Origin: Chrysomallon squamiferum
Lineage: Eukaryota > Animalia > Mollusca
DNA: 64,000 bases
NCBI GenBank assembly: GCA_012295275.1
Contig: CM022670.1
Coordinates: 7,378,001-7,442,000 of the forward strand
Direction of reading: 5' to 3'
Below the pieces are notes generated by a model. That model ran no database searches. It saw only the letters and a program-made list of their open reading frames with translations, and was not told the origin of the DNA. Made by a program: the position numbers and the translations under genes. Shown piece after piece: positions 33,601 through 36,600 of the stretch; within the stretch, counting starts at the first letter, position 1; each line of letters starts with the position of its first letter.

Positions 33601-36600
33601 ATCATTATATCATTTGTACATACAAAAAAAAAAGTATTTATATATAATGAGTATATTTTATACTCATTAAATATTCATATATACTTAACATATTCATGAT
33701 CTTTTAAAAATTAACACAATCGAAGTACTTCTCTTCGGTTAATAATCGAAACTACTATAAAGTCTCAAGATAAGTTAAGCAGAAATTATTAAATAAACGA
33801 ATAGTTTTTTTTTTTCTCTGCAGTTGCCAGTAGTAGTAATTGTAGAAATAGTAGCTGTGGCAATTAATGGTAGTAGTAATTGTAGTACCACTATTTGAGA
33901 AGGTAATAGTAGTAGTCGTTATAGTATACGTAGTATAACTGTAATGGCACTAGAAGTAGTAAGTAATAATACAAATACTAATAATAGTAGTTGTAGTAGT
34001 GGTAGTAGTTGTTGTTGTGTAGAATTGATTAGTAGTAATGTTTATAAATATATTCCAGGTTGTTGATCAACTACTTGACTTTGATTCAATTACTTCGAAA
34101 AGGTGGGGACGGTACCCTCAGTACTACGGAGGGCGTGATGCCACTTCTGTCTTAAGGGTAAATTATATTATCTCTGACGTTGACATCCTAGTCATTACTG
34201 ATGTCATCCGCATCCTTATTGTCATCATCACTAATATCATTATAGTTATCATCACAGTCATTGTTAGTATGACTGGTAAATACAACACATTTAGTAATCG
34301 TAGGTGTTGACAGTTATGATGAGTTAGTTATTCAAGTAATCACGACAGTGAAGTGCTGTAAAAGTGATTAAATCATCCATATCCTTAGCCTGCTGGTAAT
34401 TTTGAAACGAAAGATGTCACAGCAAAAGTGAAATACACAGCCTCCGTTCATTCCAGTTATTTTATTTGTATACGTTATTATAAGCAAAGAATGGAAATAC
34501 ACACAACCAAAATAATAATAATAATAATAATAATAATAATAATAATAATAATAATAATAATAATAATAATAATAATAACTTGGTTTATAATTTTGTTTAT
34601 CAAAATTCAGTTTACTGATAGTAAATTTTTCTTTGTTTTACTGTTCGAATTAAGGGACAAATAAAATGACATAAAGATTAAATTCATAAAATATTTTATT
34701 TATCTTCATCTTAATTATCTTAATTTTTCTTCAGAATGCTGGTGTTGTTGTAATGACCGATGCCTTGGTGTACAAACAGAGTCAGTATTTTTATTTTATC
34801 TTAGAAACATTAAATCTCTATTATCTATGCAAACATACTTATATCCGTTGTTATTCCTCTGTATACATAAATAATTTATAAAAAATAATTATGAATTCTC
34901 ATCAGTTTCCTATTACATTATTTTATCATCCTACTGTTGACATATGTAAGCCCGTGGTATATGCTTTGGTGTTTGTGAGAAGGTGCACACAAAAAAAGAA
35001 ATCTTCTGATGGTTTGTGAGAGTAACCGTAGGAATGGCGAATACAGGTCTGACTGAAAACTTTTATTATTAAAATGTGTTGAGATGTTTTTGTCTATTCA
35101 TTCATACTTACAGCCATTTTAAATCATGTTTACTTCTTAATGTTAATTTTGATTCATATCCAAACTGTGAATTGGCTACAGGGCACCGTTCCTTTTCGAA
35201 CCTCAGACAATTTAGCCCTGGGATTCAACTGTATCGGGTAATGTCGATGAGTAATTCCATATCAAACCTGAATCTACAGAAGCAACTGAAAATAAAGGCC
35301 ACACCTAAAAGTTATCTCAAGCAAGTGAAGAGAGTGAGAAAAATCTTCCCCGAGCAGTGGCTGTGGTTCAATGCCACCTCAAAGTAAGCTATTTAGTTCA
35401 AAGTAAAGTAATCGTTATTTTAAAATATCGCTTAGAATCAAGAATATAGAGTTACTGCAGTCTATTTATTTCAGTCGCTGATACCTCTTTTCCTTATATA
35501 CACGTGGCTGTATGTGTGTGTGTGTCTGTATGTTTGTGTTTGTGCGTTTCCATGTGTGTGTGTGTTGTATGCGGGTTTTCTGCGTTTGTGTTTTTCCATG
35601 AAATGAAGAGGAACTCTGTTACAAATAAATCCATCGACGGATGTGCGATCTATTGATAACTGATGCGCATCTATCGATATCGATGAGCACCACATTATTT
35701 AAGTGTACATTTAACAAAATAAGACTTTAATATTCTTTAGTCTATTATTGCAGAACAAGCATCAAACATTTAACCTTTGCAAAATAAGTCTTTAATACAC
35801 ACACACACACAAATATATACTTACATACACACATACACATTCACTGACATGGACACTCATACACACACACAGACACAAACACACACACACACACACACAC
35901 ACACACACACACACGTATATACATAAGTACTTTCTATAATTTCAGTTTTGGTGGAATTGCTGAGTTCCAAGCTGTCGTACCCGACACAATCACGTCGTGG
36001 GTGGCCACAGCATTTGCTGTCAGCGACACCAAAGGACTTGGAGTTACCGCTGATGCTGCTAACGTAACTTTTGACTTTATTTTGTTAATACTCACTATTA
36101 TTATTATTATTATTATTATCATCATCATCATCATCATCATTACTGTTGTTGTTGTTTTTAGTGTTGTTATTTTATTCTGAAGAAATATGATTTAACATTA
36201 TTGTATTTGTATATAGATAAAATATTATCATCTTGATTAAAAATAACTATAAGTTTCCTGGAAATTCAAATGAGGAACAAAATAAACATAACCGCTTATA
36301 AGTATAATTAATCGATTTTAAATTAAAAAACATAAATATAATTGTTTATAATTAAACGATCATGGTGTTTATCATACACTTATGTATTTAAAGTGTAGAA
36401 ATAATTTACTATGTTACAACGTAGCTAATAAAAGTATGCTTCTAAAGGTAAGTTTCAATACCAATATCACTGACTTCGTTAAACGAATTGTTTTGTTTTT
36501 TTTGTATTATTATTTTATTTCTTTTTATTACAAATATCACAAAATTGTAATAGTCTAACTTTGGTACACCTTGCCGTTGATTATTTTTATTATTATTATT

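What the first reader, a model, noticed from the sequence alone, without database searches (positions are those of the whole stretch)
35182..35383. Bait-region exon is hypervariable between paralogues while its flanking introns are conserved
Seen: exon 19 of copy C encodes [62 protein letters not shown]. The equivalent in copy D (59987-60176) encodes KPTFFWRGMDGPVFMRFRTTMPMAVGDAGPNLDVRDTPESSLM-QVKRVRKLFPEQWLW. The first ~40 codons do not align by eye and the 12-nt length difference keeps frame. The upstream intron (35050-35181 versus 59850-59986), the downstream intron and neighbouring exons align easily. Known: this segment, just before FPE.W, is the protease-sensitive bait/activation region of A2M/TEP proteins. 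Inference: diversifying selection or segment replacement gives each paralogue a different protease trigger.
Basis: partly seen in the sequence, partly recalled or inferred. Interest (0 to 1): 0.78.

Follow-up and report, generated by a model that had tools for sequence, protein, structure and literature searches.

The report
Protease-bait patch diversifies among gene copies
Tandem copies of a secreted thioester immune-protein gene, probably in a snail, are about 90% alike but differ at roughly half the letters in the short stretch predicted to be the protease trigger, so each copy likely responds to different proteases, a pattern already known in this protein family.

Summary
Exon 19 is 35182-35383 in copy C and 59987-60176 in copy D. 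Its first ~38 codons are 49% identical in DNA, against 91% for the exon's tail, 88% for the upstream intron and 82-100% for the eight other equal-length exons. The downstream intron is conserved only near the exon (69% overall). The patch is still homologous, with in-frame indels. It lies where human CD109's bait region lies. Copy C is an intact 1,403-residue secreted CD109/TEP-type gene. Public contigs show at least 4 and 5 other patch versions between the same flanks in two samples, and spliced contigs in a related organism. Synonymous divergence is also raised (dS 0.58 vs 0.09) and dN/dS 2.1 is not significantly above 1. The best reading is gene conversion homogenising the flanks while selection keeps the baits distinct. 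Copy D has a frameshift, but decay cannot explain the gap. Bait hypervariability is published for A2M/TEP genes; the likely Biomphalaria counterpart diversifies this region with 12 alternative exons instead. New member of a known kind.

The parts
35182..35383 (+). Exon 19 of copy C (bait-equivalent exon), 202 nt, starts in phase 1
   Evidence: AG/GT borders, part of a 1,403-codon open frame; the same exon 18-19 and 19-20 joins are seen in spliced contigs of organism B
35182..35297 (+). Hypervariable patch of copy C; its last 18 nt (35280-35297) look like a decayed tandem copy of the 18 nt before (10 of 18 letters match)
35298..35383 (+). Conserved tail of exon 19 ending in the FPEQWLW motif; inferred counterpart of the bait C-terminal plug and the restart of MG6
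   Evidence: 90.7% identical to D; mechanism from PMC9156758 passages, inferred for this protein
34781..35181 (+). Intron upstream of the bait exon; no microsatellite; 88.4% identical to D, joint highest of 15 introns compared
   Evidence: no Rfam match above noise
35384..35945 (+). Intron downstream of the bait exon; conserved next to the exon, 69% overall
34059..34157 (+). Exon 17 (linker); a small second variable spot with a 3-nt in-frame indel against D
34735..34780 (+). Exon 18 (end of linker, [10 protein letters not shown] motif), sets phase 1 for exon 19
   Evidence: spliced contig X11 record 9
19503..45901 (+). Copy C, exons 2-37: intact secreted CD109/TEP-type gene; a decayed reverse-strand LINE-like element sits in intron 2
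   Evidence: 36 exons, all splice sites canonical, one terminal stop, 1,402 residues without the initial Met; Pfam TED, MG2, A2M_recep and RNase H hits
39201..39377 (+). Thioester exon of C (GCGEQ)
40587..40746 (+). Exon with the region of the catalytic His; C has VHDK where relatives have V(I/L)H
59987..60176 (+). Exon 19 of copy D, 190 nt; variable patch 59987-60090
   Evidence: identical contig in X1
58789..63998 (+). Copy D, exons 17-26, cut by an N gap (58512-58711) and by the window end
61375..61486 (+). Exon 21 of D, 2 nt shorter than in C (frameshift); real null allele or assembly error
   Evidence: contigs of X11 and X12 carry the in-frame form
10452..13422 (+). Copy B, exons 3-9, ending at an N gap (13458-13657); bait exon not in the window
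230..315 (+). Copy A, second-last exon only

Best explanation
This exon encodes the predicted protease-sensitive bait loop of a tandemly multiplied, secreted CD109/TEP-type protein, and the copies likely stay alike elsewhere through gene conversion while selection likely keeps their baits different, so that the family would cover more proteases. Steps: (1) shown: the patch is far more diverged than any other exon or intron of the pair, with only in-frame indels; (2) shown: several further versions exist between the same flanks in public contigs; (3) by position and established knowledge: cleavage of this loop triggers the conformational change that exposes the thioester, and the conserved exon tail is the structural part that cannot change; (4) inferred: conversion tracts that overwrite the patch are selected against, which lets both non-synonymous and synonymous differences pile up there; (5) untested: different baits mean different activating proteases. 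C's patch is basic with no Asp/Glu; D's has 5 Asp/Glu, 5 Pro and 5 aromatic residues.
For: Patch 49% vs tail 91%, upstream intron 88%, other exons 82-100%. ML codon model: flanking exons dS 0.089, dN/dS 0.61; patch dS 0.58, dN/dS 2.1; fixing the patch at the flank dS is rejected (p = 0.004; p = 0.01 at the intron rate 0.126). Divergence is uneven over 9 flanking exon segments (0 of 96 to 18 of 102 differences, p = 2e-6), as expected from patchy conversion. One 85-90-nt contig spanning the exon end and 44-48 nt of intron has depth 560 in X1 and 299 in X9, against 24-82 for contigs that bridge the patch; 6 of 10 joints leave at 35181 and rejoin at six different places, 4 in X1 and 5 in X9. 8 of 13 joints on D skip the patch; the one with known letters is 48 nt shorter, in frame. 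Position matches human CD109's bait: the TEV-site variant 9fx2 carries its site in this stretch (through the proxy P0006, 49% identical to C; PMC12927315 passages). The 'peak of divergence with conserved flanking introns' is the published signature of selection against conversion (PMC3924837 passages). Residue counts.
Against: dN/dS is not significantly above 1 (p = 0.15; 1.1 in the best-aligned 13 codons). In that block the excess dS is only borderline (p = 0.03 and 0.06), and misalignment inflates dS. Only two full patch sequences were available, so conversion was not tested on a tree, and uneven exon divergence can also come from uneven constraint. Parts of introns 19, 21 and 25 are also poorly alignable (65-69%), so neutral escape from homogenisation happens in this gene. 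Contig depth is not a copy number. No cleavage data exist. Expression was seen only for family members in organism B, not for copies C or D themselves.
Confidence: 0.6

Rival explanations
1. Neutral escape: the loop is a disordered linker under little constraint beyond frame and length; early in-frame indels stopped conversion from crossing it, and it then drifted. The differences have no selected function.
For: dN/dS not distinguishable from 1; some intron stretches are equally unalignable; the bait is unmodelled and flexible in CD109 and A2ML1 structures.
Against: The patch is below all 9 C/D introns although it sits between two well-conserved anchors only ~115 nt apart. Differences fall on codon positions 1/2/3 as 22/16/11 of 32, the reverse of the flanks' 15/20/22 of 316. 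The same region is the divergence peak in most paralogue pairs from frogs, fish and mussels.
Confidence: 0.2
2. Fast positive selection alone: the copies split recently (dS about 0.1) and the patch was driven apart by many amino-acid substitutions, with no role for conversion.
For: Point estimate dN/dS 2.1, first and second positions enriched; positive selection on bait-like regions is reported for Drosophila and Daphnia TEPs (PMC2576239 passage).
Against: It needs dN/dS of 14-22 and fits worse than a free dS (p = 0.004-0.01). Third positions differ in 11 of 32 codons against 22 of 316 in the flanks.
Confidence: 0.1
3. Cassette exchange: patches move between copies or alleles by recombination in the conserved upstream intron and exon tail, so one locus can carry different baits in different individuals.
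For: Conserved sequence on both sides of the patch; many patch versions between shared flanks. X1 holds a 161-nt contig identical to C's upstream intron and a C-like downstream contig at about half the usual depth. One variant combines a D-like start with a C-like end (table 5c, read by hand). Conversion between TEP loci is documented in Anopheles.
Against: No contig links C-specific flanks to a non-C patch. Shared starts and ends are equally explained by common ancestry. X1 also differs from C at several flank positions in all laid contigs.
Confidence: 0.08
4. Artefact or decay: the difference comes from pseudogenisation of D or from assembly error.
For: D has a 2-nt deletion in exon 21 and lies next to an N gap; the 5' piece before that gap has lost most of its signal-peptide exon.
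Against: D's patch is identical in X1; transcripts of organism B begin the exon like D; decay would give intron-level divergence (about 12%), not 51%; both patches are stop-free and in frame; the intact copy C has the more unusual patch.
Confidence: 0.02

Closest known systems
Biomphalaria glabrata BgTEP2 (PMC7016707: passages, section 3.3, supplement passages)
   Same: Secreted mollusc TEP with the same linker motif (YYGG-DA, NAGVVV-TDA) before a highly variable region whose C-terminal residues are conserved; many versions of that region per genome. The likeness was read by eye from the supplement; BgTEP2 was not in my tree.
   Different: BgTEP2 has 12 mutually exclusive exons in one gene. 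Here each gene copy has one such exon (2 matches in the window) and the whole gene is multiplied (neighbouring exons are as deeply covered as the exon tail).
Oyster 'CD109 antigen-like' proteins P0121-P0123 (Saccostrea, Crassostrea, Ostrea)
   Same: 49-50% identity over nearly the full length; sister group of C with P0006, support 0.99; same Cys-rich end without a GPI tail.
   Different: They keep a polybasic RKKR motif in the linker, reduced to KR or RR in C and D; no tandem family was examined there.
Human CD109 and A2ML1 (PDB 8s3o, 9fx2, 7q1y; PMC12927315 and PMC9156758 passages)
   Same: Same domain order, thioester, and bait position; bait cleavage exposes the thioester.
   Different: CD109 is a GPI-anchored protein whose bait is fairly conserved between mammals (64-98% in 5 pairs, tracking the flanks). 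C has no GPI tail.
Vertebrate A2M-family paralogues (A2M/PZP; frog and fish sets) and Biomphalaria TEP-1 to -3 strain variants
   Same: Differences concentrate in the bait region: e.g. Pseudophryne paralogues 20-27% in the bait vs 81-89% in flanks; snail strains differ mainly there (PMC9363628 passages); PZP's bait attracts fewer proteases (PMC12874980 passage).
   Different: Different branch of the family (A2M rather than CD109/TEP) for the vertebrate genes; intron-level data were not compared.
Human red/green opsin exon 5 (PMC3924837 passages) and Anopheles TEP1 (PMC2576239 passages)
   Same: Opsins: a divergence peak inside an exon with conserved flanking introns under gene conversion. TEP1: conversion among neighbouring TEP loci.
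   Different: Opsins differ at a few sites in two genes; TEP1's divergent part is around the thioester domain, not the bait.

Membership tests
Thioester-containing protein (A2M superfamily) | GCGEQ thioester motif in a TED domain | tested here: met
   GCGEQ at residue 907 of C, also in D; Pfam PF07678
Thioester-containing protein (A2M superfamily) | Full MG-domain scaffold and C-terminal receptor-binding domain | tested here: met
   Full-length alignment to CD109-like proteins; Pfam A2M_recep passes its cut-off, MG2 hit is below its cut-off on a single exon
Thioester-containing protein (A2M superfamily) | Signal peptide | tested here: inconclusive
   Hydrophobic N-terminal exon 19503-19568 read by eye; no predictor run; the start codon exon was not mapped
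CD109/iTEP branch | Phylogenetic placement with CD109-like proteins, apart from A2M | tested here: met
   FastTree of C with 36 of the 124 fetched proteins: inside the mollusc CD109-like group, 0.99; no C3 or named insect TEP in the tree
CD109 proper | C-terminal GPI-anchor signal | tested here: not met
   C ends in a short Cys-rich tail and a stop; an alternative last exon was not excluded
Complement C3-like | Anaphylatoxin domain and C345C domain | tested here: not met
   No cysteine in the patch; protein ends after the receptor-binding domain
Bait region of A2M-family inhibitors | Position between the linker and the FPE-W motif | tested here: met
Bait region of A2M-family inhibitors | Cleavage there activates the thioester and traps the protease | not testable with these tools
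   needs purified protein
TEPs with alternatively spliced bait exons (BgTEP2, Drosophila TEP2, Chlamys TEP) | Array of mutually exclusive bait exons in one gene | tested here: not met
   One bait exon per copy; 2 matches in 64 kb at up to 3 mismatches
Positively selected region | dN/dS significantly above 1 | tested here: inconclusive
   2.1, p = 0.15, two sequences, 32 codons
Concerted evolution with a divergence peak | Raised synonymous divergence at the peak; flanks closer within species than between orthologues | tested here: inconclusive
   Raised dS supported (p = 0.004-0.06 by alignment); orthologue comparison not possible

The most novel reading that the evidence does not exclude
A snail TEP cluster works as a germline bait library: perhaps eight or more near-identical gene bodies exchange hypervariable bait patches by recombination in the conserved upstream intron and exon tail, so individuals differ in which bait sits in which copy. 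It would reach by whole-gene duplication and patch exchange the repertoire that Biomphalaria builds with 12 alternative exons.
Probability: 0.12. Interest if true: 0.65.

Novelty: new member of a known kind. Interest (0 to 1): 0.32.

Why it matters
Bait hypervariability in A2M/TEP proteins is established, so the pattern itself would not surprise a specialist. The locus is still a clean natural experiment: near-identical proteins that differ in one 35-40-residue loop allow a direct test of whether invertebrate TEP baits set protease specificity, which has mostly been inferred. It also suggests that molluscs reached bait diversity in the same gene lineage by two routes, alternative exons and whole-gene copies.

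Tried and rejected
No whole genome is held for this window, so copies outside it could not be read. Three protein searches found no close relative: best 63-68% for the thioester exon, no candidate for the D bait frame, 4 hits at 61-64%. No RNA holder was listed among 12 runs; this says nothing on expression. No contig of X1 or X9 was laid on C's own patch core 35226-35271; a hole proves nothing because records are filtered, so I do not count it as absence. The D frameshift could not be settled: the gap rows for that place were not shown; one D-like contig of X3 has the C-type letter there. An RNA gene in the conserved intron was rejected: two Rfam hits, both far below cut-off and on CA repeats of the downstream intron. 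A mutational bias in the patch was not supported (AT-to-GC 16 vs 10; intron 18 vs 17). Special conservation of the upstream intron was weakened: three other introns reach 87-88%. An alternative-exon array was rejected. The bait exon alone has no Pfam or PDB match (best E 0.13). One control pair went against the general rule: two Watersipora copies have 91% bait vs 89% flank identity; the wrasse pairs are gap-dominated and may be annotation differences; the mussel and pipefish sets mix orthologues and paralogues. My note 2 gave a wrong C-terminus for C; one search corrects it. Paper searches found no paper on bait-exon versus intron divergence or on a gastropod CD109/TEP tandem expansion; the library lacks most subscription journals, and older work on mouse murinoglobulin and carp A2M baits that I recall was not checked. 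PMC2685406 (passages) held nothing relevant.

Full report
Setting. The window holds parts of four copies of one gene on the + strand, broken by two 200-N gaps at 13458-13657 and 58512-58711. Copy C is complete from exon 2 to exon 37 (19503-45901): 36 exons with canonical splice sites give 1,402 residues and one terminal stop. It has a hydrophobic N-terminus, GCGEQ, Pfam TED and receptor-binding hits and a short Cys-rich end without a GPI tail. A tree with 36 of the 124 fetched proteins puts it among mollusc CD109-like proteins, next to oyster proteins that are 49-50% identical. Earlier notes on this genome call the host a snail; the tree agrees with a mollusc, and I tested no further.

The observation. 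The first 38 codons of C and 34 of D align at 49% DNA identity with a 6-nt and an 18-nt gap, stable under three gap settings. The exon's last 86 nt are 90.7% identical, the upstream intron 88.4%, and the eight other equal-length exons 82-100%. The contrast with the upstream intron has p = 2e-10 or smaller. All nine C/D introns (65-88%) are more alike than the patch. The downstream intron is conserved only near the exon (83.5% for 100 nt, 68.5% overall). The patch is homologous rather than foreign: 0 of 1000 codon shuffles reach its score, although a free-gap nucleotide test is not decisive.

What the segment is. It lies between the [10 protein letters not shown] motif and FPEQWLW. Through the proxy P0006 (49% identical to C) this stretch aligns with the part of human CD109 where the engineered variant 9fx2 carries a TEV site and with the A2M bait. 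PMC12927315 (passages) states that the TEV site is in the bait region and that bait cleavage exposes the thioester. PMC9156758 (passages) shows that the residues after the cut plug a channel and must retract, which offers a reason, by inference, why the exon's tail is conserved while its front is free. The two patches differ in chemistry: over the patch plus five residues, C has 7 Lys/Arg and no Asp/Glu, D has 4 Lys/Arg, 5 Asp/Glu, 5 Pro and 5 aromatic residues. That different proteases cut them is a prediction.

More than two copies. Contigs of public runs were laid on D (X1, X2, X3, X10) and on C (X1, X9, X11, X12), 7 of the 12 runs listed. D's patch is present unchanged in X1. On D, 8 of 13 joints skip the patch; the one whose letters are given replaces 82 nt with 34, in frame and stop-free by my hand reading. 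On C, 6 of 10 joints leave at 35181, the last intron base, and rejoin at six places between 35286 and 35321 (4 in X1, 5 in X9). One contig covering the exon end and the first 44-48 intron bases has depth 560 in X1 and 299 in X9, against 24-82 for patch-bridging contigs; depth is no copy number, but it suggests several copies identical there. Exons 17, 18, 20 and 21 are also deeply covered, so whole genes are multiplied, and the window has only one bait exon per copy. Contigs of organism B are spliced at exons 17-18-19 and 19-20-21 with the same borders, begin exon 19 like D, and show further patch ends. This supports the gene model and transcription of the family, not of C or D specifically.

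How the pattern arose. A codon model gives dS 0.089 and dN/dS 0.61 over 316 flanking codons, and dS 0.58 and dN/dS 2.1 over 32 patch codons. The ratio is not significantly above 1 (p = 0.15), but it is above the flank value (p = 0.016). Holding the patch at the flank dS needs dN/dS of 22 and is rejected (p = 0.004; p = 0.01 at the intron rate, p = 0.046 at 0.2). In the best-aligned 13 codons the evidence is weaker (p = 0.03, 0.06, 0.18). So the patch looks older than its flanks. Divergence is also uneven among flanking exons (p = 2e-6), with one exon segment identical over 96 nt. PMC3924837 (passages) describes this signature for duplicates under gene conversion: a peak of divergence at the selected site with conserved flanking introns. 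I give that reading 0.6; neutral escape 0.2; positive selection alone 0.1; cassette exchange 0.08; artefact 0.02. Conversion itself is inferred, since only two full patches and no orthologues were at hand.

The pseudogene objection. D's exon 21 is 2 nt short, and the 5' piece before the gap lacks about 470 nt including most of the signal-peptide exon; whether that piece belongs to D is unknown. Either way, decay would produce intron-level divergence, the D patch exists unchanged in another data set, and the intact copy C has the more unusual patch. The objection fails.

Comparison with what is known. Among fetched proteins, a bait far more diverged than its flanks appears in 6 of 6 frog pairs, 3 of 3 Pseudophryne pairs, 3 of 3 mussel pairs and the pipefish pair, but not in the Watersipora pair or most mammalian CD109 orthologues. 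Snail strains differ mainly in this region (PMC9363628 passages). Positive selection on the bait-like region of Drosophila and Daphnia TEPs and conversion among Anopheles TEP loci are reported (PMC2576239 passages). BgTEP2 of Biomphalaria, which shares the linker motifs by eye (supplement passages), has 12 mutually exclusive exons for this region; Drosophila TEP2 and Chlamys TEP do likewise (PMC7016707). The 1989 paper on bait diversity in mammals I saw only as a reference title. Four searches found no description of this kind of cluster in a gastropod, within a library that lacks most subscription journals.

Verdict. A real, well-supported feature, and an ordinary one for this superfamily: new member of a known kind, interest 0.32. 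The distinctive points are the number of copies, the raised synonymous divergence, and the contrast with the alternative-exon solution in a related gene.

Noticed in passing
window 47491-49092 (-), partial inverted copy at 15592-16355 (+): Intronless 534-codon open frame with internally repeated Trp-rich segments between the TEP copies; a broken copy 93% identical lies near 15.6-16.4 kb. No Pfam hit, no usable ESM Atlas hit.
   Followed up: partly
window 20051-24500 (-) and 55563-58509: Decayed LINE-like element (RNase H hit) in intron 2 of copy C; a second copy before the gap is 90.6% identical with 110 gap openings in 3 kb, which may reflect low-quality sequence at a contig end.
   Followed up: partly
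window 55428-55563: A 5' gene piece whose signal-peptide exon is cut after about 24 nt by a deletion of about 470 nt reaching the LINE end: broken copy or misassembly.
   Followed up: partly
window 13658-22996 vs 50256-58509: The two ends of the middle contig repeat each other about 36 kb apart, the size of one tandem unit.
   Followed up: no
window 34098-34125 vs 58828-58858: Second small variable spot in exon 17 where relatives have a polybasic processing motif; reduced to KR in C and RR in D, with a 3-nt indel that also varies among public contigs.
   Followed up: partly
window 230-315: Copy A's second-last exon has a 1-nt deletion in an A run relative to C (read by eye): null allele or sequencing error.
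   Followed up: no
window 4060-4805 (+): Fragments that look like a Tc1/mariner-type transposase by recalled motifs; no Pfam hit for the piece tested.
   Followed up: no
window 39290-39300 and 63462-63472: The residue after FAP, near the thioester, is Ala in C and Thr in D, where CD109 has Asn and P0006 has Asp; may affect thioester reactivity.
   Followed up: no
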